Origin: a virus
Reading direction: 5' to 3' (one strand)
IMG/VR virus record: IMGVR_UViG_3300017727_000080
Length of the DNA: 31,415 bases
A program made the position numbers and the translations under genes. Each line of letters opens with the position of its first letter. The stretch's first letter is position 1. The notes beneath the pieces are model-generated. The model made no database searches, was not told the origin of the DNA, and saw only the letters and a list, made by a program, of their open reading frames with translations. This document shows, one piece after another, positions 7,149 through 28,520 of the stretch.

Positions 7149-7156
7149 TATTTTTA

Positions 7157-9032: not shown

Positions 9033-9060
9033 AAGGGGTTTTAAACGACCCCTTTTTTTT
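9033..9060 (+). terminator. Rho-independent terminator
   Basis: AAGGGGT-tttaaacg-ACCCCTT hairpin followed by a T run of eight, directly after the 8712-9005 ORF. Confidence 0.7.
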
Positions 9061-9074
9061 ATATATTTATATAA

Positions 9075-9920: not shown

Positions 9921-10400
9921 ATGAAAAACTACTTATCGGACATCTATAAAAAGCATCAAGTATGGATTGACATTGTTTGCTCCTTTGGCTGTAACAAAGA
10001 AACAGCAGAAGATATTACACAAGAAATGTACATTAAAATTCAAAAAAGAATAAACAAAGGATTAGATATTGATTTTGGAGATGACTATAATTATTACTAT
10101 ATTTTTAAAACATTAAAATCTTTGTTCCTTGATTTAAAACGCAAAGAAGCTAAAGTCAATACGTTATCTATAGACAATATGAGGGATTTTTTAGCAGACT
10201 TTGATGCAGCTAATTATGAAGAAGTCTATGCTACAATACAAAATGAACTAAACAATATGTATTGGTATGATAAAAAGATATTTGAGATCATAGAAGGTGG
10301 CGAAAGTATAGCCCAGCTTTCAAGAAAGTCTGGCATACCTTACTACTCACTTTATAATACTTATAAGAAAGTAAAAGAAAAACTAAAAAAATTATTATGA
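9921..10400 (+). CDS. Sigma-70 family (ECF-like, two-domain) sigma factor candidate
   Basis: 159 aa. Region-2-like NKETAEDITQEMYIKIQKRI. C-terminal region-4-like HTH: IFEIIEGGESIAQLSRKSGIPYYSLYNTYKKVKEKLKKLL. Confidence 0.55.
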   Translation: MKNYLSDIYKKHQVWIDIVCSFGCNKETAEDITQEMYIKIQKRINKGLDIDFGDDYNYYYIFKTLKSLFLDLKRKEAKVNTLSIDNMRDFLADFDAANYEEVYATIQNELNNMYWYDKKIFEIIEGGESIAQLSRKSGIPYYSLYNTYKKVKEKLKKLL

Positions 10401-14540: not shown

Positions 14541-14876
14541 ATGACTAAACACGAATTTGAAGAAACAAAAAAATATCTATTGGACATTTGTCAACAAATA
14601 ATGGATGTAAAACAACCTGAATACACACAAAAGAATTTAGATATACTACACAACTTTAAATGTTCTGCTGAATTTATAGGCATAGAACCTATGGAGGTAT
14701 GGGCTGTATTTTTTAATAAACACATACAATCAATACTTGCACACGCTGGAGACCCTACTATGCATCAAGCAGAACCATTAGAAACAAGATATGCAGATGC
14801 TATTAACTATTTATTATTAGGCTTTAGCTTATTACAAGACAGACCAAAAAAAGACATCATTTCAGGAACAGAATGA
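14541..14876 (+). CDS. Hypothetical helical protein between the two methyltransferases
   Basis: 111 aa with an ATGA overlap to the second methyltransferase gene. There is only weak resemblance to all-alpha DUF1599/MazG-like domains (K..EY...W....NKH......D.INYLLLGFSL). Confidence 0.45.
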   Translation: MTKHEFEETKKYLLDICQQIMDVKQPEYTQKNLDILHNFKCSAEFIGIEPMEVWAVFFNKHIQSILAHAGDPTMHQAEPLETRYADAINYLLLGFSLLQDRPKKDIISGTE

Positions 14877-15634
14877 TATACAATGAAGATTGTTTAGTAG
14901 CTATGAAAGAAATACCTGATTATAGTATAGATGCTATTATAACAGACCCTCCTTATGGAACTACAGATTGTAAGTGGGATAGTGTAATAGACTTTGAGTT
15001 AATGTGGGAACAACTTAATAGAATTATAAAACCAAATGGTGCAACAGTTTTATTTGGAAGTGAGCCTTTTAGTTCTGCTTTGAGAATGAGTAATATTAAG
15101 AATTATAAGTATGATTGGATATGGATTAAAAACAGACCTACAGGAACTATGTTGGCAAAAAGACAACCTATGAGAAATGTAGAGAATATTTTAGTTTTCT
15201 ATAAATCACAACCAAAATATAATAGGCAAATGATAAAAAGAACACCAGAAGAATTTAAAAAATCTTATAGGAAAAATAATTCTGAATCTAAAAATGGCGA
15301 ACAAATGACATACAGAAAAACCCCTTTAATAAGACAAAGCAAAGATAGGCAATGGTATAAACCTCCAATTCAAACTTTATATTATAATTCTGATTCAAAA
15401 AGGAATGGTAAAAGTCATCCAACACAAAAACCAGTTGCATTAATGGAATATCTAATAAAAACATACACTAACGAAAACGAAACTGTATTAGATTTTACAA
15501 TGGGTTCTGGAACTACAGGCGTGGCTTGTTTAAATACAAATAGAAAATTTATAGGAATTGAAAATAACAAAGAATACTTTGAAGCTGCAGTAAAAAGAAT
15601 ACAACAACATAAGGCACAAAAAAGATTATTTTAA
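14873..15634 (+). CDS. DNA methyltransferase (N6-adenine / N4-cytosine, beta class)
   Basis: 253 aa. IITDPPYG, SHPTQKP and LDFTMGSGTTGVA motifs in beta-class order. Confidence 0.85.
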   Translation: MIYNEDCLVAMKEIPDYSIDAIITDPPYGTTDCKWDSVIDFELMWEQLNRIIKPNGATVLFGSEPFSSALRMSNIKNYKYDWIWIKNRPTGTMLAKRQPMRNVENILVFYKSQPKYNRQMIKRTPEEFKKSYRKNNSESKNGEQMTYRKTPLIRQSKDRQWYKPPIQTLYYNSDSKRNGKSHPTQKPVALMEYLIKTYTNENETVLDFTMGSGTTGVACLNTNRKFIGIENNKEYFEAAVKRIQQHKAQKRLF

Positions 15635-15659
15635 AATAAGTTAAAAATTACGTTATATA
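15633..15659 (+). promoter_or_regulatory. Phage-specific promoter-like element, copy A (AAAAT-N12-ACGTTATATA)
   Basis: AAAAT at 15633-15637 and exact ACGTTATATA at 15650-15659. Intergenic, 36 nt upstream of the GTG at 15696. Confidence 0.55.
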
Positions 15660-15694
15660 GATATATAGAATTAATTAATTAATATTTTATTAAT

Positions 15695-15703
15695 TGTGGA
15701 TAA
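15695..15703 (-). promoter_or_regulatory. Consensus DnaA box (TTATCCACA on the - strand)
   Basis: The + strand reads TGTGGATAA, a perfect 9-mer. It follows a roughly 60-nt stretch that is almost entirely A/T (15635-15694). A single occurrence could be chance. Confidence 0.3.
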
Positions 15704-15968
15704 TAGAAAAAACAATGGAGGACATTCGACAAAAGGCTTTGCAGGGAGACCTAAAAAAGCAGACGAACTAAAGCTGATTGAAAAACTTGATGCCTTAATA
15801 GATAATGATGAAGTAATTAAAACTTTAGGTAAACAAATACTAAAAGGAGACAGTAGAGCTATGAATCTATATTTCGGTTATAGATATGGCAAACCTAAAG
15901 AATCTGTAGACATATCTTCAAGTGATGGCTTTAATGTAAACTTTAGAGACCTAATCAAATTTAAGTGA
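15696..15968 (+). CDS. Putative terminase small subunit
   Basis: 90 aa, GTG start. Basic N-terminus NGGHSTKGFAGRPKK. GTGA overlap with the large terminase gene. Assigned mainly by position. Confidence 0.4.
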   Translation: MDNRKNNGGHSTKGFAGRPKKADELKLIEKLDALIDNDEVIKTLGKQILKGDSRAMNLYFGYRYGKPKESVDISSSDGFNVNFRDLIKFK

Positions 15969-17167
15969 TTGAAATAAATAAAAAGTATGCTCCTATTGCT
16001 GAATCAGACGGGAGGTACTTTATTGTAACTGGAGGACGTGGGTCTGGTAAATCATTCTCCATAAATCTCTTATTAGTTCTTTTAACTTATGAAGCTGGGC
16101 ATACTATACTGTTTACTCGTTACACTTTATCTTCTACTTATATTTCTATTATTCCTGAATTTATTGAAAAACTTGAATTGCTTAAAATCTTTGATGACTT
16201 TTATATCACAAAAGATGAAATAAGAAATAAGCGTTCTGGGAGCAAGATAATCTTTAAGGGTATCAAAACATCAAGTGGAGATCAAACAGCTAATCTAAAG
16301 TCATTACAAGGGGTTACAACCTTTGTATTAGACGAGGCAGAAGAACTTACTAATGAAGATACATTTGACAAGATAGATTTATCAGTCAGACAACAAGGCA
16401 AACATAATAGAGTGATACTAATACTAAATCCTACAACTAAAGAACATTGGATATATAAAAGATTCTTTGAAGATAAAGGAATACAAGAAAGTGTAAACAC
16501 TTCAAAAGATAATGTTACCTATATACATACAACTTATTTAGACAATCTTCAAAACCTTTCAGAAAGTTACATAAACCAAATAGACAACATAAAGAAACGC
16601 AGACCACAAAAGTATAAACATCAAATGCTTGGTGGCTGGTTAAATAAAGCAGAAGGCGTAATATTTACCAACTGGTCAATAGGAGAATTTAAAAAAGTAG
16701 GTATAAGCGTTTTTGGTCAAGACTTTGGAATGAATGACCCAAACACATTAATAGAAACTAATATAGATACTGCTAATAAGATTATTTATTTAAAAGAATG
16801 TTTTTACTTGCCTAAACTAACAACAAGCGAAATAGCACGTTTAAATATGAAACACGCAGTAGACAATCTAATAGTAGGCGATTCAGCAGAAAAAAGATTA
16901 ATCTATGAATTAAAACAGAAATGTAATATAGTAGCTTCAATAAAAGGAGCTGGTTCTATTACTTATGGAATATCATTATTACAGGACTATGATTTAATAG
17001 TAGACGAACAAAGTATTAATTTAATAAAAGAACTTAACAACTACAGTTGGCTTGAGAAGAAATCTAAAACACCAATAGACAAATGGAATCATTGTTTAGA
17101 TGCAATTAGATATGCAGTAAGTTACCAACTACAAAATCCTAACAGGGGTAAATATTATATACAATGA
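15965..17167 (+). CDS. terL: Terminase large subunit (PBSX/XtmB, Terminase_3-like)
   Basis: 400 aa. Walker A IVTGGRGSGKSFS, Walker B TTFVLDEAEE and a C-terminal nuclease region (FGQDFGMNDP...DAIRYA). Confidence 0.85.
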   Translation: MIEINKKYAPIAESDGRYFIVTGGRGSGKSFSINLLLVLLTYEAGHTILFTRYTLSSTYISIIPEFIEKLELLKIFDDFYITKDEIRNKRSGSKIIFKGIKTSSGDQTANLKSLQGVTTFVLDEAEELTNEDTFDKIDLSVRQQGKHNRVILILNPTTKEHWIYKRFFEDKGIQESVNTSKDNVTYIHTTYLDNLQNLSESYINQIDNIKKRRPQKYKHQMLGGWLNKAEGVIFTNWSIGEFKKVGISVFGQDFGMNDPNTLIETNIDTANKIIYLKECFYLPKLTTSEIARLNMKHAVDNLIVGDSAEKRLIYELKQKCNIVASIKGAGSITYGISLLQDYDLIVDEQSINLIKELNNYSWLEKKSKTPIDKWNHCLDAIRYAVSYQLQNPNRGKYYIQ

Positions 17168-17168
17168 T

Positions 17169-17270
17169 ATGGAATGTAAAAAATGTAAACAGACAATGAC
17201 AATATATTCAGGTAAAGACAATAAGGACTACTACTACTGTAGGGAGTGTGATATTATAGAGTTTGAATAA
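17169..17270 (+). CDS. Zinc-ribbon miniprotein, paralog of 7303-7425 (33 aa; not in the ORF track)
   Basis: Product: MECKKCKQTMTIYSGKDNKDYYYCRECDIIEFE. Same CxxC-N17-CxxC spacing, with shared K5, K7, M10, N18 and YY. It starts 2 nt after the terL stop. Confidence 0.5.
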   Translation: MECKKCKQTMTIYSGKDNKDYYYCRECDIIEFE

Positions 17271-17312
17271 ACTTTATTAACAAGTTTGTTATTTATTTTG
17301 TATATTGCATAT

Positions 17313-17429
17313 ATGATATACGATATACCAAATTTTACAGACAAACAACTTCAAGGAGAACTTAGGTCAACTATCAAATATGCTCAAGCATTATTAGAGG
17401 AGATTGATAAAAGGGAAAAAGAGAAGTAA
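17313..17429 (+). CDS. Possible 38-aa helical miniprotein
   Basis: Product: MIYDIPNFTDKQLQGELRSTIKYAQALLEEIDKREKEK. Preceded by an AT-rich promoter-like stretch (ttattttgtatattgcatat). Confidence 0.3.
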   Translation: MIYDIPNFTDKQLQGELRSTIKYAQALLEEIDKREKEK

Positions 17430-17519
17430 AATAAGTTATTAAATATTTTGTTAATTAAACAAATAGTTATATATTGCAGTATAATTGCAATGAAGCAGTT
17501 ATATAAACAAACATAACAA

Positions 17520-17687
17520 ATGACAATAAATAAAATAACAATCGAAGATAAGTTTAAACTTATAAACATAGAAGCAACATTAAAAATGTTGTTAGTACAT
17601 TCAGACCTGCCTAAATATCAGAAAGACTGGGTGGCAGAATCTTATAAAAACATTTTAGATTTTAAACATCAAAACGATATATTATGA
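17520..17687 (+). CDS. Hypothetical 55-aa protein (not in the ORF track)
   Basis: Product: MTINKITIEDKFKLINIEATLKMLLVHSDLPKYQKDWVAESYKNILDFKHQNDIL. ATGA overlap with the next small ORF. Confidence 0.45.
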   Translation: MTINKITIEDKFKLINIEATLKMLLVHSDLPKYQKDWVAESYKNILDFKHQNDIL

Positions 17688-17812
17688 AAAAAAGACAGTA
17701 TAGATCAAATCAAGGGCGTAATCCTAAAAGGGAAGAAGCTATGTTTAATGCAATCAAAGTAGCATTTGTATTATTAGTTATTGCTACTATTGTAAATTTA
17801 ATTTTATTATAA
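17684..17812 (+). CDS. 42-aa tail-anchored membrane miniprotein (not in the ORF track)
   Basis: Product: MKKRQYRSNQGRNPKREEAMFNAIKVAFVLLVIATIVNLILL. Basic N-terminus and C-terminal TM segment. Coupled to both neighbours (ATGA, TAATG). Confidence 0.45.
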   Translation: MKKRQYRSNQGRNPKREEAMFNAIKVAFVLLVIATIVNLILL

Positions 17813-17985
17813 TGAAATACTATTACGAAGATAACGGAAACAGAAGATATTACATTGCAAAGAAAATATCTAAAAAACAAAACAAAGAAACATTTTTAAA
17901 AATTGCAGGTTATGCAGCTATTGGCTGGGCAGTATTTTATATTGCATTGTTTTTTTTCTTACATTTGTTAGAAATGGCAGTATGA
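17812..17985 (+). CDS. 57-aa membrane miniprotein (not in the ORF track)
   Basis: Product: MKYYYEDNGNRRYYIAKKISKKQNKETFLKIAGYAAIGWAVFYIALFFFLHLLEMAV. C-terminal TM segment. ATGA overlap with the 17982 ORF. Confidence 0.45.
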   Translation: MKYYYEDNGNRRYYIAKKISKKQNKETFLKIAGYAAIGWAVFYIALFFFLHLLEMAV

Positions 17986-18257
17986 GAAACAAAATACAGA
18001 ACATACAAGATTTAGAATACAGCAACAATCAAATATTAATTGGAGAATTAATTAAAAAGTGGTTAAAGGCAAAACCTAAAAACAAAGAGATTCTAAAATT
18101 AAGAGATGCGTTTATTGATAATTCAATTTATGTTGCAGGTTTACAGAATGATCTTACAGCTTCTAAAATGGCTAATAGTGAATATAGAGAAAGAATGAAT
18201 GAAGCCTTGTATGATTTAGAATTAATAAAAGAAGAAAATAAATATTATAGTGAGTGA
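17982..18257 (+). CDS. Hypothetical protein (91 aa)
   Basis: ORF-track entry. It is the last member of the coupled small-gene chain and is followed by a terminator. Confidence 0.5.
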   Translation: MRNKIQNIQDLEYSNNQILIGELIKKWLKAKPKNKEILKLRDAFIDNSIYVAGLQNDLTASKMANSEYRERMNEALYDLELIKEENKYYSE

Positions 18258-18283
18258 CTATATAATTGAGTTGTTTTGTTTGG

Positions 18284-18317
18284 AAAAAGGGTGTTAGAAA
18301 TAGCACCTTTTTTTTTA
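18284..18317 (+). terminator. Rho-independent terminator candidate
   Basis: AAAGGGTG / CACCTTT stem (one G-U pair), 10-nt loop, then a long T run. Confidence 0.55.
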
Positions 18318-18321
18318 TACT

Positions 18322-18348
18322 AAAATCCTACTTTAATTACGTTATATA
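18322..18348 (+). promoter_or_regulatory. Phage-specific promoter-like element, copy B
   Basis: AAAAT at 18322-18326, N12, ACGTTATATA at 18339-18348. ATG at 18352 is only 3 nt downstream. Confidence 0.55.
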
Positions 18349-18351
18349 AGT

Positions 18352-19002
18352 ATGAAAGCTAATATAAACGTTCCTAACGAACTTAATGAGATTACACTAA
18401 AGCAATATCAAAGGTTCTTAAAAGCTCAAGACAAAGCAAAGGATAATAACTTCATACAGACTAAAATGATTGAGATATTTTGTAGGGTAAAACCTCAAGA
18501 TGCTCTTAACATAAGATTGTCAGATGCAGAACGTATCACAAGAATAATATCAGATATGTTTGAACAGAAGCCTGATTTAGTACAGTCCTTCTGGCTTAAC
18601 AATGTAGAGTATGGTTTTGTTCCTGATCTTGATGAAATTACATTAGGAGAATATATTGACCTTGATACTTATATGGGAGACTGGGATAATATAGAAATAG
18701 CAATGAATGTATTATACAGACCTATCAAACAGAAACTTGGAAACAAGTATTTAATAGAGGACTATGACCCCGATAAAAAGGACAGAATTACTACAATGCC
18801 TATGGATGCTGTATTCGGTTCTATACTTTTTTTTTATCGTTTAGGGATAGAATTATCGAAAACTATGATGAATTATTTGGAGAACAAGGAGGAGAAACAA
18901 CTTCTGGACGTGCTGGATTTGCAAAAAAGTGGGGATGGTATTCGAGCCTTTACGGACTCGCTGGAGGAGATATTACAAGATTTGAAGATATCACAAAATT
19001 AG
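18352..19002 (+). CDS. Structural-module protein, tail-assembly-chaperone-like (zero-frame product)
   Basis: 216 aa, first gene after promoter copy B. It contains the T9 run at 18827-18835. The -1 frame is open across its 3' end. The chaperone assignment is inferred from the frameshift architecture, not from recognised homology. Confidence 0.5.
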   Translation: MKANINVPNELNEITLKQYQRFLKAQDKAKDNNFIQTKMIEIFCRVKPQDALNIRLSDAERITRIISDMFEQKPDLVQSFWLNNVEYGFVPDLDEITLGEYIDLDTYMGDWDNIEIAMNVLYRPIKQKLGNKYLIEDYDPDKKDRITTMPMDAVFGSILFFYRLGIELSKTMMNYLENKEEKQLLDVLDLQKSGDGIRAFTDSLEEILQDLKISQN

Positions 19003-19088
19003 AAATGCATAAGTGTTTAATGATGTTAGCATTTATGAAAGATAAAAACGAATTAGAATCGAAACAAATAAAAAGTAAGTTTAAATGA
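18777..19088 (+). other. Open -1 frame overlapping the 3' end of the 18352 ORF and filling the downstream gap; putative -1 frameshift extension
   Basis: 104 stop-free codons in the -1 frame. The heptamer T_TTT_TTT at 18828-18834 is in canonical phase. The frame ends with TGA at 19086-19088, overlapping ATG 19085 (ATGA). The predicted tail is ...FLSFRDRIIENYDELFGEQGGETTSGRAGFAKKWGWYSSLYGLAGGDITRFEDITKLEMHKCLMMLAFMKDKNELESKQIKSKFK. Confidence 0.45.
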
Positions 19089-19555
19089 GCCAACAAGGAA
19101 TAAGGGGATTTTACCAATTAACTGAAACAATAAAAGACCAGCTTTTAGCTGACATAAATTGTAATACAGTAACTACAGGAGACCTATATGATGTTAACCT
19201 TAACAAGCAAGACATATTCCCTCTTGCTCACATTATAGTCAACAACGTAACACAAGAAGAACAAACACTTACGTTTAACATAAGCATTCTTGCAATGGAT
19301 ATTGTAGATCAATCTAAATTACCAACAGAAGATAGATTTATAGGAAACAATAATGAACAAGATATACTTAACACACAATTAGCAGTATTAAATAAAGTAA
19401 TACAAGTTTTAAGAATGGGTACTTTATACAAAGACCAGTATCAATTAGATAGTCCAGTAAATTGTGAACCATTTTATGATAGGTTTGAAAACCAATTAGC
19501 TGGGTGGACTGCAACAATGGATATTATAATTTATAACGATATAAGAATCTGTTAA
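19085..19555 (+). CDS. Virion neck/tail completion protein candidate
   Basis: 156 aa, in the structural module. Function assigned only by position and general character. Confidence 0.4.
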   Translation: MSQQGIRGFYQLTETIKDQLLADINCNTVTTGDLYDVNLNKQDIFPLAHIIVNNVTQEEQTLTFNISILAMDIVDQSKLPTEDRFIGNNNEQDILNTQLAVLNKVIQVLRMGTLYKDQYQLDSPVNCEPFYDRFENQLAGWTATMDIIIYNDIRIC

Positions 19556-20088
19556 TGAACTTTGAAAATATAAATAAGGCATTAAAAGATTTTGGAAATT
19601 ATGTAGTCCAACAGTCAAGAACAAATTTGACAAAAGGTAACCATAACGCATCTAAAGAATTATATAACTCAATTACCTATACACTTGATGAAGAAGAAAA
19701 AGGTTTTATTATAAACTTTTTAATGGAAGAATACGGTGCATATCAAGATCAAGGTGTTAAAGGTGTTAAATCTAATTATATTGTAAATAAGAAGTCTCCT
19801 TTTTCATATAAGAGAAGTAGCAACTTAATAGGTCTTGAAAAAAAAACAGGAGTGTTTTCAAAATTTGCAAGGCGTGTTGGTCTACAGCCAAGAGATAAAA
19901 AAGGAAGATATGGTTCTTATGAAACAATGGGGTACATTCTTGCAAATAGTATAAAAAATAAAGGTATAAAAGCAAGTATGTTTTTTACTAAACCATTTGA
20001 AGCAGCTTTTAAAAGACTGCCACAAGAATTAGTAAACGACTTTATATTAGATATAGAAAAAGGAATAATATTAGGAACAAAAAAATAA
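19555..20088 (+). CDS. HK97 gp10-like tail completion protein candidate
   Basis: 177 aa. KELYNSITYTLDEEEKGFIINFLMEEYGAYQDQGVKG resembles the L(R/Y).SI...g....v....YA..vE.G core of the gp10 family. Confidence 0.4.
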   Translation: MNFENINKALKDFGNYVVQQSRTNLTKGNHNASKELYNSITYTLDEEEKGFIINFLMEEYGAYQDQGVKGVKSNYIVNKKSPFSYKRSSNLIGLEKKTGVFSKFARRVGLQPRDKKGRYGSYETMGYILANSIKNKGIKASMFFTKPFEAAFKRLPQELVNDFILDIEKGIILGTKK

Positions 20089-20091
20089 ACA

Positions 20092-21093
20092 ATGGCAGCA
20101 ATAGCATTAAGAAGTCCACAATATAAATCAGCAACAGCAGGAACAGGAGCTAATTCTGCTAAACTAACTATTAGTATTGATGGAACTATACAATATACAT
20201 TAGTAAAAGGTACAACGGCAGGAGCTACTATGCTTTGGGAAATAGCAGAACTTTGTAGAGATTATATAAGCATAAGTTTTGATGGTACTTATAATGCTTC
20301 ATCAGCAGATACTTTAACCATTATTTCTACCTTAACTTCACACGCATCAACAGACGGAACAGGTACTGCATTAACGACTTCATCAATAACAGACAAAGGC
20401 TATGATGCTTATGGTACATTTATGGAGGGTTCAAATCCTGTTGTTCCTTTTGGTTCACGCCCTACTTGGCTTGTAAGTCCTGACCCTAACGGTACTACAA
20501 ACAATGAATATTACATTTATGTTCCTAATAATACAGCTGGATATGTACCTTATATATCAACAGGAGAAGCGTTAGTATATAATAGTTTTGGTGCAACTGC
20601 AACAGAATTAACAGGAACACCAGCAGGAACTAAAATGAATATAAACAGAGTTGATTGCACAAAATATGGAGATGGTCATAAAGTTACATTTGTAAATAAA
20701 TTTGGCGCATTACAAGACCTTTGGTTTTTCTTAAAATCAGTAGATACAACAACAAAAAAACAAGAGCAATTTCAAAGAAATATTGTAACATCAACTGGTA
20801 GTTATAGTGTTAATACACATACTAAACAAGACTATAATACAGTAGCAAATACAAGCGTAACATTGAGTAGTGGGTATTATCCTGAATGGGCTAATCAATG
20901 GTTTGAACAATTATTATTGTCAGAGCAAGTATGGATTACAAGACCAAAAGAAACTGACCCAACTACTGATGAAGTAATACCTGTAAATGTTAGAAAAAAT
21001 AGTATGGTTAAAAAGACTTCACTAAACGACAAACTAATAGATTACACATTTGATTTTGATATGTCATTTGATTACATAAACAACATTAGATAA
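20092..21093 (+). CDS. Virion structural (tail) protein, function unassigned
   Basis: 333 aa, T/S/G-rich. TAATG overlap with the 792-aa ORF. Confidence 0.55.
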   Translation: MAAIALRSPQYKSATAGTGANSAKLTISIDGTIQYTLVKGTTAGATMLWEIAELCRDYISISFDGTYNASSADTLTIISTLTSHASTDGTGTALTTSSITDKGYDAYGTFMEGSNPVVPFGSRPTWLVSPDPNGTTNNEYYIYVPNNTAGYVPYISTGEALVYNSFGATATELTGTPAGTKMNINRVDCTKYGDGHKVTFVNKFGALQDLWFFLKSVDTTTKKQEQFQRNIVTSTGSYSVNTHTKQDYNTVANTSVTLSSGYYPEWANQWFEQLLLSEQVWITRPKETDPTTDEVIPVNVRKNSMVKKTSLNDKLIDYTFDFDMSFDYINNIR

Positions 21094-23471: not shown

Positions 23472-23475
23472 AATT

Positions 23476-23622
23476 ATGATAAAAAATATATTAGAGCTAT
23501 TAAAGATCGTAGACGGAGAAACAGAAACAATTAGAATTGCACAAGGCAAATATAAAATAGCTGAAACTTTTAAAGAAGGATTTAAACAAATAAAAAGAGA
23601 AATAAAATGGCAGAAAAAATAG
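23476..23622 (+). CDS. Possible 48-aa protein (not in the ORF track)
   Basis: Product: MIKNILELLKIVDGETETIRIAQGKYKIAETFKEGFKQIKREIKWQKK. It starts 5 nt after the upstream stop and overlaps the 23607 start. Confidence 0.35.
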   Translation: MIKNILELLKIVDGETETIRIAQGKYKIAETFKEGFKQIKREIKWQKK

Positions 23623-25364
23623 AAGTACAATTATTAGTCGACACTAAAACTTCGGAAAAAAATGTTGAAAATCTGAACAAGGATTTAAAAGAAACAAGTT
23701 CTGACATATCTTCTATTGAAAATGCAGCAGACAAAGCTACTGGAGGTATGGTATCTGGTTTTAAGGGAGCAGCATCAGGTTTAAAAGGTGTTACAAAAGG
23801 ATTTAAAACAGTAGGTGGTGCAATAAAAGCTTCTGGTTTAGGTCTACTTGTTATAACAATTACTGCATTAACTGCTGCTTTTACAAGATCAGAAGAAGGG
23901 CAAAATAAGTTCGCTAAAATAATGGGTGTTCTTGGAGCAGTTACAGATGTATTTGCTGATAAAATTGCAGATTTAGGAGAATTAATCATAGATATTTTTA
24001 CAAAACCAAGTAAAGTATTAGAAGATTTTTCTAATTCTATACAAATCTTTGTAATGGATAAAGTAGATAAAGTAATAAAAGGAATGGGTCTTTTAGGTAC
24101 TGCAATAACTAAAGCGTTTTCTGGAGATTTTAAAGGGGCGTTAGAAGATGCAGGCAGTGGATTTGTAGAATTAAACAGGGGATTAAATCCTGCCGTAATA
24201 CTTACTGAATCATTAGTCAAGTCTACAAAAGAACTAACAAAAGAATTAGTAGAAGAAGGAAAAAAAGCTGGAGAAATTGCTGATATGAGGGCAAAGGCTG
24301 ACAAAGTAGAAAGACAATTACAAATAGATAGGGCTAAAGCAGATAGAGATAGAGCAGAACTTTTAGAACAGGCTGTTAATAAAGAGAAATTTAGTGTTGA
24401 AGAAAGAATATCATTTTTAGAAGAAGCGGGTAAATTAGAAGAAGAAATTACTAATAAAGAAATAGCTGCTGCAAAATTAAGATTAGATGCTAAAATTGCT
24501 GAAAATGCTTTAGGTAAATCAAATAAAGCAGATTTAGATGAAGAAGCAGCATTAAAAGCACAATTAATACAATTAGAAACAGCAAGGCTTACTAAACAAA
24601 AAGAAGTTACAAGTCAAACTATTGCTTTAAAAGCAGAAGAAGCAGCAGCATTAAAAGCTATTGAAGATCAAAAGAAAGCAGATGAAGAAGAAGCTAAATT
24701 ATTAGCTGATGAAGAAGCAGCAGCAAAAAAATTAAAACAAGAAGAAGCAGATAAAGCAGAAATTGAAAGAAAACAAAAACTTGCTGATGAAGAAAAAGCA
24801 ATAGAAGAACAAAAGAGAGCACAACAAGAAGAAACGTTTAACAATGCAGTTGCATTAGCAGGTGCAGAAACAAAACTTGGGAAAATGTTGTTGTTAGCTA
24901 AACAACTTTTATTAGCTAAAGAATTTGTATTAAACGCAAAAGCTCAAATAGCAAATGCTAAAAAAGCAGTAGGAGATGCTGTGGTTAGTGGTGCAGAATC
25001 AAGTACAGAAGTAGCAGGGTCGGTAGCAAAAGCTGCAAACACATCACCCCCTCCATTTAATATTCCTTTTATATTAACGGCATTAGCAACTGGAGCAAGT
25101 GTAATGAGTGCAGTAAATGCTGCAATTAGTTCTACTAAAAGTGCTGCAGCAAGAATTGGAGGAGGAGGAGGAGGCAGTATGCCTACGTCTCCATCTATTA
25201 CTCCAGTAGCACCACCTGCATTTAATGTAGTAGGTCAAGGAGGTACAAGTCAATTAGCAGATGCTATAAGTAATCAAGCACCAATGAGAGCATACGTTGT
25301 AAGTAATGATGTAACAACTGCACAAGGGCTTGAAAGAAATATTGTAGAAGGAGCAACAATATAA
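23607..25364 (+). CDS. Tape-measure-like protein
   Basis: 585 aa. Hydrophobic segments (GLGLLVITITALTAAF; PFILTALATGASVMSAV), a long A/E/K-rich coiled coil and a Gly run (GGGGGS) near the C-terminus. Confidence 0.55.
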   Translation: MAEKIEVQLLVDTKTSEKNVENLNKDLKETSSDISSIENAADKATGGMVSGFKGAASGLKGVTKGFKTVGGAIKASGLGLLVITITALTAAFTRSEEGQNKFAKIMGVLGAVTDVFADKIADLGELIIDIFTKPSKVLEDFSNSIQIFVMDKVDKVIKGMGLLGTAITKAFSGDFKGALEDAGSGFVELNRGLNPAVILTESLVKSTKELTKELVEEGKKAGEIADMRAKADKVERQLQIDRAKADRDRAELLEQAVNKEKFSVEERISFLEEAGKLEEEITNKEIAAAKLRLDAKIAENALGKSNKADLDEEAALKAQLIQLETARLTKQKEVTSQTIALKAEEAAALKAIEDQKKADEEEAKLLADEEAAAKKLKQEEADKAEIERKQKLADEEKAIEEQKRAQQEETFNNAVALAGAETKLGKMLLLAKQLLLAKEFVLNAKAQIANAKKAVGDAVVSGAESSTEVAGSVAKAANTSPPPFNIPFILTALATGASVMSAVNAAISSTKSAAARIGGGGGGSMPTSPSITPVAPPAFNVVGQGGTSQLADAISNQAPMRAYVVSNDVTTAQGLERNIVEGATI

Positions 25365-25368
25365 ATGC

Positions 25369-25395
25369 AAAATTTTTAATTAATAACGTTATATA
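25369..25395 (+). promoter_or_regulatory. Phage-specific promoter-like element, copy C
   Basis: AAAAT at 25369-25373, N12, ACGTTATATA at 25386-25395. ATG at 25400 is 4 nt downstream. It shares 28 of 33 positions with copy D. Confidence 0.55.
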
Positions 25396-25399
25396 AAAT

Positions 25400-25999
25400 A
25401 TGAAGATAGTTGAATTGATACTTGACGAAAATCAAGAAGAATCTGGAATCGAAGCAATATCCATAGTTGAAAGTCCTGCCATTGAAGAAGATTTTATTGC
25501 TTTAAAAAGTAATGAAATTAAACTTGCAGAAATAGATAAAGAAAAAAAGATATTAATGGGAGCTTTGTTAATACCAAACAAACCTATATATCGAAATAAT
25601 GGAGAAGATGAATATTATATATACTTCTCTAAAGATACGGTATTGAAAGCATCCCAAATGTATTTGACAAAAGGTAATCAAAACAATTCTACATTAGAAC
25701 ACCAACATTCATTAAGTGGTTTAAGTTTAGTAGAATCTTGGCTTGTTGAAGATGAAGTACACGACAAGTCCAGAAAGTATGGAATGAATGTACCTGTAGG
25801 AACTTGGATGGGAGCTGTAAAAGTCAACAATGATGAAGTCTGGAATGACTATGTAAAAACAGGTAAAGTTAAAGGGTTTTCTATAGAAGGCTACTTTGCA
25901 GATAAAATGGAACGACCTAAAGATTCCGTTGGTTTATCAGAAGATAAAGAAGCTAATGATCTTATAGAAAAAATAAAAGATATTTTAACTAATGCCTAA
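25400..25999 (+). CDS. Prohead protease, XkdF-like
   Basis: 199 aa. IEAISIVESPAIE, ALLIPNKPIYR, LEHQ, SWLVED, GTWMGAVKVNNDEVWNDYVKTGKVKGFSIEG follow the XkdF-type putative phage serine protease pattern. It lies upstream of the scaffold and capsid genes. Confidence 0.7.
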   Translation: MKIVELILDENQEESGIEAISIVESPAIEEDFIALKSNEIKLAEIDKEKKILMGALLIPNKPIYRNNGEDEYYIYFSKDTVLKASQMYLTKGNQNNSTLEHQHSLSGLSLVESWLVEDEVHDKSRKYGMNVPVGTWMGAVKVNNDEVWNDYVKTGKVKGFSIEGYFADKMERPKDSVGLSEDKEANDLIEKIKDILTNA

Positions 26000-26141
26000 A
26001 AAAACATTTTTTCCAAGTTATACAAGTCCTAAAGGTTCAAGACGTGCTTGTTTATGTAAAGACAAAAATACTTATTCAAGAAAATGTTGTGATGGCTCTT
26101 TATGGGCACAAGGCATAGGAGTTATATCAAGAACAATATGA
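25992..26141 (+). CDS. Cys-rich basic 49-aa peptide (not in the ORF track)
   Basis: Product: MPKKTFFPSYTSPKGSRRACLCKDKNTYSRKCCDGSLWAQGIGVISRTI. The ATG overlaps the end of the protease gene. It fills the gap before promoter copy D. Confidence 0.4.
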   Translation: MPKKTFFPSYTSPKGSRRACLCKDKNTYSRKCCDGSLWAQGIGVISRTI

Positions 26142-26147
26142 AAATGC

Positions 26148-26174
26148 AAAAAAATTAATTAACCACGTTATATA
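26148..26174 (+). promoter_or_regulatory. Phage-specific promoter-like element, copy D
   Basis: AAAAA at 26148-26152, N12, ACGTTATATA at 26165-26174. ATG at 26182 is 7 nt downstream. Confidence 0.5.
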
Positions 26175-26181
26175 TATAATT

Positions 26182-26841
26182 ATGAAATCAACTGAAATGT
26201 TAAACCAAATCAAGACGCTTCTAAATATAGAAGTTAAACTTGAAGAACAAAAACTTGAGAACGGTACTCGTGTAGAAGCAGAATCGTTTGAAAAAGGTAA
26301 AGAGATATTTATTCTTACAGATGACGAAAAAGTTGCTATGCCAGTAGGAGAATACCTACTTGAAGATGGCAGACTTATAGTTGTTGCAGAAGAAGGAATT
26401 ATTGATGACGTTAGAGAAGTATCTGACGAAGTTCCACAAAAGGAAGAAGAATCTAAAGATGAAACCGAAGATTTAGAGTACAAAGACAAAGAAGAAAAAA
26501 TGGATGAAGAAGCTGATGTACAAGACTGGGAAGGTATGGAAAAAAGAATTAAAAATCTTGAAGATGCTATTGCTGATCTTAAATCTAAAGTTGGAGAAAA
26601 AAATATGGAAGAAGAAGTTGAAATGGAAGAAGAAGTTTCAAGACAACCTAAATCAAGAACAGTTAAAGAAGAATTTAACGAAGAAGTAAACGAGCAATTA
26701 AAGGAAGAATTATCACAACCTGCTGCTGCTCCAATTAAACATAATCCTGAATCAGGAAACGCAAAAAAAGAACATTTTAGAATTTCGCCAAATAGAAAGC
26801 CATCTACAATGGACTATATATTAAATCAATTAAATAAATAA
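26182..26841 (+). CDS. Scaffolding protein
   Basis: 219 aa, highly acidic (E/D/K-rich) and helical. It sits immediately upstream of the major capsid gene and downstream of the protease. Confidence 0.65.
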   Translation: MKSTEMLNQIKTLLNIEVKLEEQKLENGTRVEAESFEKGKEIFILTDDEKVAMPVGEYLLEDGRLIVVAEEGIIDDVREVSDEVPQKEEESKDETEDLEYKDKEEKMDEEADVQDWEGMEKRIKNLEDAIADLKSKVGEKNMEEEVEMEEEVSRQPKSRTVKEEFNEEVNEQLKEELSQPAAAPIKHNPESGNAKKEHFRISPNRKPSTMDYILNQLNK

Positions 26842-26853
26842 AAATAAATAATT

Positions 26854-27822
26854 ATGCCACAACCAACTATTACTACTACTTATGCTGGAGAATTTGCAGG
26901 TAAGTACATTGCTGCTGCTCTTTTGAGTGGTAACACATTAAGTCAGGGTGCTATCGAAATTAAGCCTAACATTAAGTTCAAAGAAGTTATGAAAAAAGTT
27001 GTTACTTCTGGTTTAATTACTGATGACTCTTGTGACTTCACATCTGCTGGAACTGTAACACTTACTGAAAGAATTATACAGCCAACAGAATTTCAAGTTA
27101 ACCTTGAATTATGTAAAACACCTTTTGAATCAGACTGGGGAGCTGTATCTATGGGCTATTCAGCTTTTGATAATTTACCTCCTGATTTTTCGAGTTTCTT
27201 AATAGCTCACGTTGCAGAACAAGTATCTGCTAATACAGAAAGCAATATCTGGCAAGGGAATCTTGGAGGTGCACAAGCTGGAGAATTTGACGGATTCACA
27301 ACTTTAGCTACTGCTGATGCAGACGTAATTGATGTTGCCGCTGTAGGTGGTGGTGTTAATTCTGGAAACGTAATTGCAGAACTTGGAAAAATCGTTGATG
27401 CAATTCCATCTACTTTATATGGTAAAGATGATTTACACATCTACGTTTCACAAAACATTGCTAAAGCCTATGTAAGAGCTTTAGGTGGATATGCTGCTAT
27501 AACTAACGTTGCAGGAACTGAAAATGTAGGTTCTGTAGGAGCAAATGGTATTGACAACAGAGGTACACTATGGTATGCTGGAGGAGAAAATCTTTCTATT
27601 GACGGTGTAAAAATCTTTGTTGCTAATGGTTTACCAAACAATTATGCAATGGCTGCTCAAAGAAGTAACCTTTACTTTGGAACTGGATTAATGTCTGACT
27701 ACAATCTTGTAAAATTGATTGATATGGCAGATATTGACGGAAGTAAAAACGTAAGAGTAATTATGAGATTTACTGCTGGAGTACAGTACGGAATAGGGTC
27801 TGAAATAGTACTTTATTCTTAA
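26854..27822 (+). CDS. Major capsid protein (HK97-fold type)
   Basis: 322 aa. Its position after the protease and scaffold, its size and composition, and the strong terminator that follows all fit a major capsid protein. Confidence 0.8.
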   Translation: MPQPTITTTYAGEFAGKYIAAALLSGNTLSQGAIEIKPNIKFKEVMKKVVTSGLITDDSCDFTSAGTVTLTERIIQPTEFQVNLELCKTPFESDWGAVSMGYSAFDNLPPDFSSFLIAHVAEQVSANTESNIWQGNLGGAQAGEFDGFTTLATADADVIDVAAVGGGVNSGNVIAELGKIVDAIPSTLYGKDDLHIYVSQNIAKAYVRALGGYAAITNVAGTENVGSVGANGIDNRGTLWYAGGENLSIDGVKIFVANGLPNNYAMAAQRSNLYFGTGLMSDYNLVKLIDMADIDGSKNVRVIMRFTAGVQYGIGSEIVLYS

Positions 27823-27843
27823 TAAATTAAATTAACCAAAAAT

Positions 27844-27882
27844 AAAGGGTAGGTGGGTATATGCTTACTTACCCTTTTTTTT
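27844..27882 (+). terminator. Rho-independent terminator
   Basis: AAAGGGTAGGT / ACTTACCCTTT stem (one G-U pair), 12-nt loop, T run of eight. Confidence 0.7.
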
Positions 27883-27901
27883 ATAAAATAAAATATAAAC
27901 T

Positions 27902-28429
27902 ATGGCTTGTACATTAAACACAGGGAGAAAATTACCTTGTAAAAGTGCCTTCGGTGGCATAAAAACAGTTTGGTTTGGAGATTTCGGAGGTATTACTGGT
28001 GTAACTGTAGATTCTACTACAAAACAAGTAACAACTATCGCAGGAACACAACCTGACTGGTATCAATTTGATGTAAAGGGTAATTCTTCACTTGAAACTA
28101 CTGTAACAAGTTCAAGAGAAAATGGAACTACTTTTTATACTCAAACATTAAATTTAACACTAACATTCCTTGATGCTAAAACACAAGCTGAATTGCAAGA
28201 AATAGCTAAAGCAAGACCTTATGTTTGTGTTGAAGATTACTACGGAAATCAATTCTTATGTGGACTTGAAAACGGAATGGAGTTTGTTTCAGGAACAGTA
28301 GTTTCTGGAGCTGCTGCAGGAGATTTATCAGGATTCACTTTAGTAATGGAAGGTCAAGAAGAATTAGCTCCTTACTTTTTAGATTCAGGATTGATTGTTG
28401 CAAACGCAGCACAAATAGTACCTAACTAA
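27902..28429 (+). CDS. Tail-tube-like major virion protein candidate
   Basis: 175 aa, beta-rich. It is bracketed by two strong terminators, which suggests an abundant product. The general pattern resembles siphophage tail-tube proteins, but I cannot name a specific family. Confidence 0.45.
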   Translation: MACTLNTGRKLPCKSAFGGIKTVWFGDFGGITGVTVDSTTKQVTTIAGTQPDWYQFDVKGNSSLETTVTSSRENGTTFYTQTLNLTLTFLDAKTQAELQEIAKARPYVCVEDYYGNQFLCGLENGMEFVSGTVVSGAAAGDLSGFTLVMEGQEELAPYFLDSGLIVANAAQIVPN

Positions 28430-28450
28430 TATTTATTGATATTAAATTAA

Positions 28451-28477
28451 GAGCATCCTTCGGGGTGCTTTTTTTTT
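28451..28477 (+). terminator. Rho-independent terminator
   Basis: GAGCATCC-ttcg-GGGTGCTT hairpin with a UUCG-type tetraloop, followed by a T run. Confidence 0.75.
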
Positions 28478-28493
28478 GCTTTAACATTTTCAC

Positions 28494-28520
28494 AAAATAA
28501 CTTATTTATTACGTTATATA
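28494..28520 (+). promoter_or_regulatory. Phage-specific promoter-like element, copy E
   Basis: AAAAT at 28494-28498, N12, ACGTTATATA at 28511-28520. ATG at 28525 is 4 nt downstream. Confidence 0.55.

What the first reader, a model, noticed from the sequence alone, without database searches (positions are those of the whole stretch)
15633..28520. Five intergenic copies of a bipartite AAAAT-N12-ACGTTATATA element define the late transcription units
The exact 10-mer ACGTTATATA occurs five times: 15650, 18339, 25386, 26165 and 28511. I found no copy on the minus strand. Every copy is intergenic and on the gene strand.

Four copies have AAAAT exactly 12 nt upstream; copy D has AAAAA there. This gives a sigma70-like geometry, CAAAAT-N16-TATATA, with an invariant ACGT extension. 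Copies C and D share 28 of 33 positions (AAATGCAAAA...TTAATTAA..ACGTTATATA). Copies B and E lie directly after terminators.

Each copy heads a recognisable module: terminase, tail, protease, scaffold/capsid, and portal-to-fibre. The element does not resemble the host-type TTTG/TAnnTTTG promoter. It therefore looks like a phage-specific late promoter class. Only partial matches occur inside genes (6093, 7388, 10161).
Basis: seen in the sequence. Interest (0 to 1): 0.78.

Follow-up and report, generated by a model that had tools for sequence, protein, structure and literature searches.

The report
Phage sigma-factor late promoters abutting start codons
Five copies of a two-part DNA signal in this marine flavobacterial phage are very probably late-gene promoters read by a small sigma factor the phage itself encodes, and they sit so close to the start codons that the late messages probably have no leader.

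Summary
ACGTTATATA occurs five times, all on the + strand and all intergenic (0.11 expected). Each copy has AAAAT or AAAAA exactly 12 nt upstream. The next-best matches to the two-part consensus have 3-4 mismatches and all lie inside genes.

The window is a complete 31,292-bp phage genome related to Nonlabens phages P12024S/L.

The element is conserved upstream of the same late genes in dozens of uncultured relatives, down to about 50% protein identity. It keeps its register: fixed upstream CAAAAT, and ATG usually 12-13 nt after the C of CGT.

P12024S has the textbook ECF form, AAAC-N16/17-CGTTAATATA-N2-ATG, before seven late genes.

The phage encodes a 159-aa protein (9921-10400) whose predicted fold matches ECF sigma factors. 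P12024S has a homologue.

Best reading: these are late promoters dependent on a phage-encoded ECF-type sigma. CGT, not TATATA, anchors the -10 element. Four of the five probably give leaderless mRNAs. Terminators directly upstream of copies B and E argue against an RNA-level role.

No transcription start site has been mapped.

This is a new member of a known kind (phage sigma plus late promoters). The promoter-AUG fusion is the most novel untested feature.

The parts
15632..15659 (+). Late promoter copy A (TAAAAT-N12-ACGTTATATA). It lies 36 nt upstream of the GTG of a 90-aa gene that overlaps the start of the large terminase gene. It is the only copy with a leader.
   Evidence: 1 mismatch to the two-part consensus; terminase assignment
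18321..18348 (+). Late promoter copy B (TAAAAT-N12-ACGTTATATA). The ATG at 18352 starts 3 nt after the motif. Its -35-like part begins a few nt after the terminator T-run.
   Evidence: conserved upstream of the orthologue in more than 30 relatives
25368..25395 (+). Late promoter copy C (CAAAAT-N12-ACGTTATATA). The ATG of the XkdF-type prohead protease gene at 25400 starts 4 nt after the motif.
26147..26174 (+). Late promoter copy D (CAAAAA-N12-ACGTTATATA). The ATG at 26182 (acidic scaffold-like protein, followed by the capsid-like gene 26854-27822) starts 7 nt after the motif.
28493..28520 (+). Late promoter copy E (CAAAAT-N12-ACGTTATATA). The ATG at 28525 starts 4 nt after the motif. This unit runs through the portal gene (28950-30989), across the circular junction, into the tail fibre and lysis genes.
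9921..10400 (+). Gene for a 159-aa ECF-type sigma factor, the proposed reader of the five promoters. It lies in the early/replication half and has no copy of the motif upstream.
   Evidence: Weak but consistent sequence hits to ECF sigmas; AF2 model with pLDDT 79.8; the top ~25 Foldseek PDB hits are nearly all ECF sigmas; homologue gp33 in Nonlabens phage P12024S
18282..18316 (+). Intrinsic terminator ending the terminase-side unit, directly upstream of promoter B.
   Evidence: dG -15.7 kcal/mol, z -4.66, followed by a T9 run; a hairpin plus T-run is conserved in relatives
28449..28481 (+). Intrinsic terminator directly upstream of promoter E.
   Evidence: dG -15.1 kcal/mol, z -4.44
27844..27885 (+). 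Intrinsic terminator after the capsid-like gene. No promoter copy follows it, so gene 27902-28429 probably depends on read-through.
   Evidence: dG -21.4 kcal/mol

Best explanation
**What the five elements are.** They are late promoters used by host RNA polymerase core carrying a phage-encoded ECF-type (group 4) sigma factor, the product of ORF 9921-10400.

**Proposed sequence of events.**
1. The sigma gene sits in the early/replication half of the genome. It is presumably transcribed from host-type promoters (inferred).
2. Its sigma-4 domain reads the conserved (T/C)AAAAT box.
3. Its sigma-2 domain reads and melts the CGTTATA part of ACGTTATATA (inferred from ECF promoter rules).
4. With C of CGT at about -12, transcription would start at or within a few nt of the A of the ATG. 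That ATG lies 12-16 nt downstream in four of the five copies.
5. The tail, protease, scaffold/capsid and portal-to-lysis units would therefore be made as leaderless or near-leaderless mRNAs.
6. The terminase unit (copy A, GTG start) would keep a leader of about 33 nt.

**Shown.**
- The motif, its statistics and its strand and position bias.
- Its conservation in register across relatives.
- The terminators upstream of B and E.
- The ECF fold of the protein.

**Inferred.**
- That this sigma reads this motif.
- The start site and the leaderless nature of the mRNAs.
- The timing of expression.
For: **1. The motif is real and specific.** Five hits against 0.11 expected, all + strand and intergenic. 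There is a clean gap between the five sites (0-1 mismatch) and everything else (3 or more mismatches).

**2. Conservation in relatives.**
- The exact 10-mer is present in 53 of 80 related IMG/VR loci. That is about 130 copies, and all but 2 are on the gene strand.
- In 106 unique instances the upstream box is nearly invariant: A-16 in 106/106, A-15 in 105/106, A-17 in 97/106, C-18 in 61/106.
- It precedes the orthologues of genes 18352, 25400, 26182 and 28525 down to about 50% protein identity.

**3. Fixed distance to the start codon.** Of 142 unique CGTTATATA contexts, an ORF-opening ATG starts 12 nt after the C in 63, 13 nt in 30, and 14-16 nt in 25.

**4. The cultured relative.** Nonlabens phage P12024S has AAAC-N16/17-CGTTA nine times against 0.95 expected. 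Seven of these precede + strand late genes, and six of them have the ATG exactly 12 nt after the C. AAC in the -35 and CGT in the -10, with 14-17 bp spacers, is the published ECF promoter pattern (PMC5758882).

**5. A cognate factor exists.**
- ORF 9921-10400 hits almost only ECF sigma models, across its full length: SigZ 9e-5, TIGR02937 1e-4.
- Its AF2 model (pLDDT 79.8) retrieves ECF sigmas almost exclusively among the top ~25 PDB matches. These include Mtb SigE/SigL/SigH, AlgU, SigW and E. coli sigmaE, at probability 0.99-1.0.
- P12024S gp33 is a 27%-identical homologue, annotated with Sigma70 region 2.
- 1837 homologue clusters exist in metagenomes, many on 28-33 kb contigs.

**6. Terminators.** Strong hairpins end a few nt to about 11 nt before the upstream box of B and E. 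The downstream genes therefore need a promoter inside the ~35-45 nt that the motif occupies.

**7. Specificity to this phage group.** 94 of 119 IMG/VR stretches with the exact two-part pattern, and all 18 multi-copy stretches, encode relatives of this phage.

**8. Suggestive co-variation.** Sigmas with the region-2 motif [LIM]F[LI]DLKRKE go with CGTTATATA. The L041-type sigma (IYLNTHKKE) goes with (G)TTTATATAT, which lacks the C.
Against: - No transcription start site, expression timing or binding data exist for this phage or any relative.
- The sigma assignment rests on fold and on sub-threshold sequence scores. Pfam Sigma70_r2 scores 15.9 bits against a cutoff of 24, TIGR02937 21.8 against 42.9, and the PDB profile search has a best E-value of 0.24.
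- The window's upstream box is CAAAAT, not the canonical AAC. Its distance to CGT (13-15 nt, depending on register) is at the short end for ECF promoters.
- Some subclades keep CAAAAT and a TATA core at the same register but lack CGT (ACTATATA, TTATATAT). TATA may therefore matter as much as CGT.
- The sigma/promoter co-variation could simply reflect shared ancestry.
- Host flavobacterial mRNAs are mostly leadered (87% have more than 10 nt; PMC6847099). Efficient leaderless translation in this host is assumed, not known.
- Copy D (16 nt) and copy A (46 nt from C to the start codon) do not fit a strict leaderless rule.
Confidence: 0.72

Rival explanations
1. The motif is the binding site of a phage late activator, or the target of a hijacked host alternative sigma. 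It works with host holoenzyme, and the 159-aa sigma-like protein has another role.
For: - Sequence scores of the 159-aa protein stay below all curated sigma cutoffs.
- Many phages drive late operons with activators rather than sigmas (own knowledge: RinA/ArpU, lambda Q, P2 Ogr).
- Flavobacteria carry many ECF sigmas with AAC/CGT-type promoters (general ECF pattern, PMC5758882).
Against: - No host-type -7 element (TAnnTTTG) accompanies any copy.
- The two-box geometry with fixed spacing is that of a sigma-read promoter.
- A sigma-fold protein is conserved in every sufficiently complete relative, including the distant cultured one that carries the analogous motif.
- In a scan of bacterial genomes the pattern gives only single, scattered hits across unrelated phyla. 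That is what chance would give, and it shows no host regulon.
Confidence: 0.12
2. This is a sigma70-like promoter with -35 CAAAAT, a 16-nt spacer and -10 TATATA. ACGT is an upstream extension, and the promoter is read by a primary-type sigma.
For: - A TATA core at the same register is the one feature shared by all subclades, including those without CGT.
- The 16-nt spacing resembles sigma70 promoters.
Against: - TATATA ends 3 nt before the ATG in most copies. With a -12..-7 hexamer, transcription would start inside or after the start codon.
- CAAAAT does not resemble TTGACA or the Bacteroidota TTTG.
- The host primary sigma reads TAHHTTTG at -12..-5 (PMC6847099).
- The sigma70 consensus scan finds no more promoter-like sites than shuffles do, and does not single out these sites.
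- The cultured relative shows AAC-N16/17-CGT.
Confidence: 0.06
3. The element acts in RNA, as a translational operator, ribosome-loading signal or processing site placed just before the AUG of late genes.
For: - The motif keeps a very constrained distance to the ATG.
- Bacteroidota lack Shine-Dalgarno pairing and use A-rich Kozak-like contexts (PMC6847099).
Against: - Copies B and E lie directly behind strong terminators. The element would rarely be transcribed from upstream, and there is no room for another promoter.
- The conserved CAAAAT box at a fixed 12-nt spacing is typical of DNA recognition.
- Copy A and its orthologues keep the motif but sit 31-42 nt from the start codon.
Confidence: 0.05

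Closest known systems
phiEco32 gp36 sigma factor and its middle/late promoters (E. coli podophage)
   Same: A small, divergent two-domain phage sigma redirects host RNAP core to phage middle/late promoters. These carry a phage-specific -10-region consensus and need a -35 contact (PMC12276001). The logic is the same: early genes by host sigma, late genes by phage sigma.
   Different: - The host phylum differs (Bacteroidota), as does the motif: AATGTA centred at -11.5 in phiEco32, CAAAAT-N13-CGTTATATA here.
- phiEco32 needs the co-factor gp79, and no counterpart was identified here.
- No promoter-start codon fusion was seen in the passages of that paper read here.
- Nothing here has been tested experimentally.
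Bacterial ECF (group 4) sigma promoters, e.g. B. subtilis sigmaW TGAAAC-N16-CGTA
   Same: - CGT at the start of the -10 element.
- An A-rich/AAC-type -35 box.
- Near-invariant sites and a spacer in or near the 14-17 bp range (PMC5758882).
- The sigma has the ECF two-domain fold.
- The cultured relative has the textbook AAAC-N16/17-CGTTA.
   Different: - The sigma is phage-encoded.
- No anti-sigma gene or autoregulatory promoter was seen.
- The window's -35 box is CAAAAT rather than AAC.
- The -10 continues into a long conserved TTATATA.
- The promoter abuts the start codon.
Bacteroidota primary-sigma promoters (-33 TTTG / -7 TAnnTTTG)
   Same: Same host lineage and an AT-rich context. Such elements occur in this genome's early-side intergenic regions (4426, 7157, 7816).
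   Different: None of the five elements contains TAnnTTTG or TTTG at the right places. Host transcripts are mostly leadered, with a mean leader of 33 nt (PMC6847099).
T4 gp55 and SPO1 gp34 late promoters (own knowledge)
   Same: A phage-encoded sigma-family protein reads a short AT-rich late consensus (TATAAATA in T4) found before structural genes.
   Different: T4 late promoters have no -35 element and need the sliding clamp and gp33. Here a -35-like box at fixed spacing is strongly conserved, and the sigma has both sigma-2 and sigma-4 domains.

Membership tests
ECF (group 4) sigma-70 family factor (for ORF 9921-10400) | Two-domain sigma-2 plus sigma-4 architecture of about 160-200 aa, without regions 1.1 and 3 | tested here: met
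   The AF2 model has nine helices and pLDDT 79.8. Foldseek PDB hits 1-25 are nearly all ECF sigmas, aligned over 157-182 columns at probability 0.99-1.0.
ECF (group 4) sigma-70 family factor (for ORF 9921-10400) | Sequence match to curated sigma models above their thresholds (Pfam Sigma70_r2/r4, TIGR02937) | tested here: not met
   Sigma70_r2 scores 15.9 bits against a cutoff of 24. TIGR02937 scores 21.8 against 42.9 and SigZ 22.5 against 212. The PDB profile search gives Mtb SigE at E=0.24 as its best hit. The hits are consistent in kind but all below threshold.
ECF (group 4) sigma-70 family factor (for ORF 9921-10400) | Binds RNAP core and confers promoter-specific initiation | not testable with these tools
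   Needs in vitro transcription or genetics.
ECF-type promoter | CGT-type -10 element | tested here: met
   CGT is invariant in the five copies and dominant in relatives. CGTTATATA accounts for 170 of the hits to a relaxed AAA-spacer-CGT[TA]A pattern. P12024S has CGTTA.
ECF-type promoter | AAC motif in the -35 element, 14-17 bp from the -10 | tested here: inconclusive
   The window family has (T/C)AAAAT, ending 13 nt before CGT. There is no AAC, although C-AAA is conserved. P12024S has AAAC-N16/17-CGT, which fully meets the criterion.
ECF-type promoter | Transcription starts a few nt downstream of the -10 element, dependent on the cognate sigma | not testable with these tools
   No 5'-end data. 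Only the geometry is available: the ATG lies 12-13 nt after the C.
Phage late promoter class read by a phage-encoded sigma | Consensus confined to late (structural, packaging, lysis) transcription units, on the coding strand, in intergenic positions | tested here: met
   All five copies lie between 15.6 and 28.5 kb, ahead of the terminase, tail-side, protease, scaffold/capsid and portal units. None is in the replication half.
Phage late promoter class read by a phage-encoded sigma | Conserved at equivalent positions in related phages that carry the sigma | tested here: met
Phage late promoter class read by a phage-encoded sigma | Late temporal expression dependent on the phage sigma | not testable with these tools
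   No transcriptomic data are held for this group (literature searches).
Bacteroidota primary-sigma promoter | -7 element TAnnTTTG (TAHHTTTG) with the TSS 4-5 nt downstream | tested here: not met
   No TAnnTTTG overlaps any of the five elements. Intergenic TAnnTTTG occurs only at 4426, 7157 and 7816.
   TATATA ends 3-4 nt before the ATG in B, C and E, and in most relatives. CAAAAT is unlike TTGACA. The sigma70 consensus scan shows no enrichment (93 sites against 90.6 expected) and does not pick these sites.
Leaderless mRNA | The 5' end of the transcript is at, or within a few nt of, an AUG start codon | not testable with these tools
   Only the geometry supports it: C of CGT to A of ATG is 12-13 nt in 93 of 142 contexts and 12 nt in six P12024S promoters. 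The one copy with a GTG start is also the one with a long leader.

The most novel reading that the evidence does not exclude
In a large, globally distributed group of marine Flavobacteriia phages, the whole late regulon may be built from compact modules of about 44 nt. In each module an ECF-sigma promoter is fused in fixed register to the AUG. Late mRNAs would then be obligatorily leaderless, in a host phylum whose own mRNAs are mostly leadered and lack Shine-Dalgarno pairing. That would couple a phage sigma switch to a switch in translation-initiation mode, giving late phage messages a distinct route to the ribosome.
Probability: 0.45. Interest if true: 0.7.

Novelty: new member of a known kind. 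Interest (0 to 1): 0.55.

Why it matters
- **Understudied group.** Transcription control in phages of marine Bacteroidota is essentially unstudied. The literature searches found no paper on promoters of this group.
- **Immediate use.** The finding gives a concrete promoter consensus and a candidate cognate sigma for an abundant uncultured lineage: 1837 sigma homologue clusters, many on complete ~30-kb contigs. That allows late operons to be annotated directly from sequence.
- **Testable now.** A cultured model, Nonlabens phage P12024S, has the same design.
- **If the leaderless prediction holds.** It would be a clear case of a phage regulon using leaderless translation in a Shine-Dalgarno-independent host. 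It would also supply a compact orthogonal sigma/promoter pair for Bacteroidota genetics.

Tried and rejected
- **Nucleotide search against cultured phages.** No match. Only protein-level relatives exist, Nonlabens P12024S/L at 31-33% identity.
- **tblastn of the sigma against cultured phages.** No match for the window's protein. The P12024S homologue finds only the Nonlabens phages. No further cultured systems are available.
- **Sigma70-type promoter scan.** No enrichment, 93 sites against 90.6 expected. Not informative for this organism.
- **Scan of bacterial and archaeal genomes for the two-part pattern.**
  - Only single hits, scattered over unrelated phyla, as chance would give.
  - This yields no host regulon and no clear prophage.
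  - A few hits lie on small Flavobacteriia MAG contigs that may be mis-binned phage. These were not followed up.
- **Profile search of the sigma alignment against PDB sequences.** Best hit Mtb SigE at E=0.24. Too weak alone, and superseded by the fold comparison.
- **Sigma/promoter co-variation.** Only 24 loci held both a sigma and the gene-B promoter. The trend is consistent with sigma specificity but cannot be separated from shared ancestry, so it is reported as suggestive only.
- **k-mer enrichment in relatives lacking the 10-mer.** No clear alternative motif emerged. Orthologue-anchored upstream alignments were needed to see the variants.
- **Rejected without further work.** Packaging site, replication origin or methylation target: five dispersed, strand-specific copies next to start codons fit none of these.

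Full report
**1. The observation**

The 10-mer ACGTTATATA occurs exactly five times (15650, 18339, 25386, 26165, 28511). All copies are on the + strand. Dinucleotide-preserving shuffles give 0.11 on average and never more than one.

All five copies lie in intergenic gaps ahead of + strand ORFs. AAAAT (AAAAA in copy D) lies exactly 12 nt upstream in every copy. The joint pattern AAAW-N13-CGTTATATA gives 5 hits against 0.02 expected.

One-mismatch versions of the 10-mer inside genes occur at about the chance rate. When the 16 specified positions of the two-part consensus are scored together, the five copies have 0-1 mismatch and every other site has at least 3. The genome therefore holds exactly five sites.

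**2. Context**

The first 123 nt of the window are repeated at its end. It is therefore a closed assembly of a 31,292-bp genome. G+C is about 30%, CpG is depleted (observed/expected 0.47), and every gene is on one strand.

Gene content splits into two halves:

| Half | Genes |
|---|---|
| Replication/early (about 7.1-15.6 kb) | NinG-like nuclease, AAA ATPase, 5'-3' exonuclease, DnaA-type HTH protein, two DNA methyltransferases |
| Late (15.6 kb, across the junction, to about 7.0 kb) | large terminase, tail-side genes, XkdF-type protease, scaffold-like and capsid-like proteins, portal, 1377-aa tail fibre, endolysin, holin |

There is no nucleotide match to any cultured phage. The nearest cultured relatives are the Nonlabens (Persicivirga) siphophages P12024S/L, at 31-33% protein identity. 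This is an uncultured marine Flavobacteriia phage.

**3.

In copies B, C, D and E the 10-mer ends only 3, 4, 7 and 4 nt before the ATG of the next gene. Copy A is 36 nt before a GTG.

Copies B and E sit directly behind strong intrinsic terminators (dG -15.7 and -15.1 kcal/mol, z about -4.5). The T-run ends a few nt to about 11 nt before the upstream box. Whatever transcribes genes 18352 and 28525 must therefore start inside the ~35-45 nt between terminator and start codon, much of which the element occupies.

**4. Relatives**

Eighty IMG/VR loci encoding homologues of the 792-aa protein were fetched.

- *Copy number and strand.* The exact 10-mer is present in 53 of them. There are about 130 copies, and all but two are on the gene strand.
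- *Upstream box.* Over 106 unique instances it is almost invariant: C-18 in 61, A-17 in 97, A-16 in 106, A-15 in 105, A-14 in 86, T-13 in 66 (A of ACGT counted as position 0). An ATG peak appears at +13.
- *Orthologous positions.* Orthologue-anchored upstream alignments show the element before the counterparts of genes 18352, 25400, 26182 and 28525, down to about 50% protein identity. Most have the form CGTTATATA-N3-ATG. For the first and last of these genes, a terminator-like T-run lies just upstream.
- *Distance to the start codon.* Of 142 unique CGTTATATA contexts, an ORF-opening ATG begins 12 nt after the C in 63, 13 nt in 30, and 14-16 nt in 25. In 128 of the 142, AAA sits at the fixed upstream register.
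- *Specificity.* In a scan of all IMG/VR, 94 of 119 stretches with the exact two-part pattern encode relatives of this phage. All 18 multi-copy stretches do.
- *Bacterial genomes.* The pattern gives only scattered single hits, as chance would.

**5. The cultured relative**

P12024S lacks the exact 10-mer. It has AAAC-N16/17-CGTTA nine times against 0.95 expected. Seven of these are upstream of + strand late genes, in the form AAAAC-N17-CGTTAATATA-N2-ATG.

- The C of CGT is again exactly 12 nt before the A of the ATG in six of them.
- This holds even though the box itself is one base longer than in the window.
- AAC in the -35 and CGT in the -10, with 14-17 bp spacers, is the published signature of ECF sigma promoters. 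An example is sigmaW, TGAAAC-N16-CGTA (PMC5758882).

**6. A cognate factor**

ORF 9921-10400 (159 aa) gives weak but one-sided sequence hits.

- Pfam Sigma70_r2: E=0.012.
- NCBIfam: 12 of 13 hits are ECF sigmas, including full-length matches to SigZ (9e-5) and TIGR02937 sigma70-ECF (1e-4). All are below the curated cutoffs.
- PHROGs: an RNA polymerase sigma factor family at E=0.003.
- PDB profile search with a 20-sequence alignment: Mtb SigE at only E=0.24.
- AlphaFold2 model from the same alignment: pLDDT 79.8.
- Foldseek against the PDB: almost exclusively ECF sigmas among the top ~25 hits, aligned over nearly the full length at probability 0.99-1.0. They include Mtb SigE, SigL and SigH, P. 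aeruginosa AlgU, B. subtilis SigW, E. coli sigmaE, BldN and CnrH.

The protein has 1837 homologue clusters in metagenomes. Many lie on 28-33 kb contigs, and JGI labels some as 'sigma24'. P12024S gp33 has the same length, is annotated with Sigma70 region 2, and is a 27%-identical homologue.

The gene lies in the early half. No copy of the motif precedes it.

**7. Interpretation**

The most economical reading has three parts:
- The five elements are late promoters read by host RNAP core carrying this phage ECF-type sigma.
- The (T/C)AAAAT box is the sigma-4 target.
- CGTTATA is the sigma-2 target.

TATATA ends 3 nt before the ATG, so a -12..-7 hexamer would place the start site inside or beyond the start codon. 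If instead C of CGT sits at about -12, as expected for ECF promoters (own knowledge of ECF promoter geometry, not tested here), the +1 position falls on the A of the ATG.

The near-constant 12-13 nt between CGT and ATG holds across genes, across diverged relatives, and across the one-base-longer P12024S box. That is what a leaderless design would demand. It is hard to explain otherwise for a DNA element.

The one copy with a non-AUG start (A, GTG) is also the one with a long leader. That agrees with the known preference of leaderless translation for AUG (own knowledge).

Host F. johnsoniae transcripts are mostly leadered: 87% have more than 10 nt, with a mean of 33 nt. They use a different -7 element, TAHHTTTG at -12..-5 (PMC6847099). 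The late phage units would therefore differ from host genes in both promoter and initiation mode.

**8. Variation and co-variation**

Some subclades keep CAAAAT and a TATA core in the same register but change the 5' part of the -10 box:
- ACTATATA-N5-ATG
- CGATATATA
- (G)TTTATATAT(T/A)

Sigmas with the region-2 motif [LIM]F[LI]DLKRKE accompany CGTTATATA. The L041-type sigma (IYLNTHKKE; 41% identical, with a nearly unchanged putative sigma-4 recognition helix) accompanies boxes without the C, while CAAAAT is retained. This fits sigma-2 reading the CGT. It rests on few independent lineages, so it is only suggestive.

**9. Rivals**

- *An activator site, or a hijacked host alternative sigma.* This cannot be excluded without biochemistry. 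It is less economical, given the conserved sigma-fold gene and the absence of any host-type core element.
- *An RNA-level operator.* This is disfavoured for three reasons. Terminators lie just upstream of B and E. The second box sits at fixed spacing, as in DNA recognition. Copy A and its orthologues keep the motif 31-42 nt from the start codon.

**10. Comparison with known systems and novelty**

The closest experimentally studied analogue is phiEco32. Its divergent sigma gp36 directs RNAP to middle/late promoters with an AATGTA box centred at -11.5 and a required -35 contact, helped by gp79 (PMC12276001). T4 gp55 and SPO1 gp34 are looser analogues (own knowledge).

Literature searches found nothing on promoters or sigma factors of this phage group.

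The finding is therefore a new member of a known kind: a phage-encoded sigma plus its late promoters. It occurs in an unstudied and abundant marine lineage. The fixed promoter-AUG register, implying a leaderless late regulon, is its most novel feature and is untested.

No transcription start, timing or binding data exist. That is the main limit on confidence.

Noticed in passing
window 1-123 and 31293-31415: The first 123 nt are repeated exactly at the end. The window is therefore a closed (circular or terminally redundant) assembly of a 31,292-bp genome. A 170-aa ORF starting at 30996 runs across the junction.
   Followed up: yes
window 7015-7354: This 340-nt intergenic region lies at the boundary between the lysis genes and the early genes. 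It holds a host-type TATATTTG element at 7157 and a pyrimidine-only tract of about 65 nt (about 7232-7296, TTTCTTTTTTGTAGGCTTTTTTCTTTCTTTTTCTTTTTGTCC...). It could be an early control or origin-like region.
   Followed up: no
window 9032-9077: A terminator hairpin (dG -12.4 kcal/mol) is followed by TATATTTA, a near-match to the host -7 element TAHHTTTG, only 5 nt before the ATG at 9075. That ATG opens the operon containing the sigma gene. This host-type promoter may also give a near-leaderless mRNA.
   Followed up: partly
window 15660-15695; loci L018, L046, L052, L063, L055 upstream of the gene-A orthologue: In relatives, the leader between promoter copy A and the small gene before the terminase contains a conserved palindrome, TTGA(T/A)TAA(A/T)CAA. 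The window has GAATTAATTAATTAAT at that place. This may be an operator or RNA element specific to the packaging unit.
   Followed up: no
window 25992-26141: A 49-aa Cys-rich ORF (…CLCKDKNTYSRKCCDGSLWAQGIGVISRTI) overlaps the protease stop codon and ends just before promoter D. Its 3' coding sequence appears conserved upstream of promoter D in relatives.
   Followed up: no
window 27844-27901: A strong terminator (dG -21.4 kcal/mol) follows the capsid-like gene, and no promoter copy comes after it. Gene 27902-28429 presumably depends on read-through, which is a likely way of setting the capsid-to-accessory-protein ratio.
   Followed up: partly
loci L051, L062, L037, L071; L064, L068; L041-L044, L049; L030, L031, L038, L039, L073: Subclades of the phage group carry variant boxes in the same register before the same genes: ACTATATA-N5-ATG, CGATATATA-N3-ATG and (G)TTTATATAT(T/A). 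A quite different motif, TTGTTTAT(A/T)AAAAAA-N5-ATG, also occurs. This hints at several sigma/promoter specificities within one phage family.
   Followed up: partly
window 13045-14538 and 14873-15634: Two N6/N4 DNA methyltransferase genes lie just upstream of promoter A. The genome is CpG-depleted (observed/expected 0.47), and ACGT occurs 61 times against about 84 expected. Whether the ACGT inside the promoters is methylated is unknown.
   Followed up: no
window 7816-7870: A host-type -7 element (TACATTTG at 7816) is followed within about 25 nt by a weak hairpin and a T9 run, before gene 7920. It might be a short transcript or an attenuator, but the fold is not significant.
   Followed up: partly
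loci L344, L351, L291 (genome contigs): Single copies of the two-part motif lie on small contigs binned as Polaribacter (5.4 kb), Flavobacteriales (29.4 kb) and Lacinutrix MAGs. These may be mis-binned phage genomes and could hint at the host.
   Followed up: no
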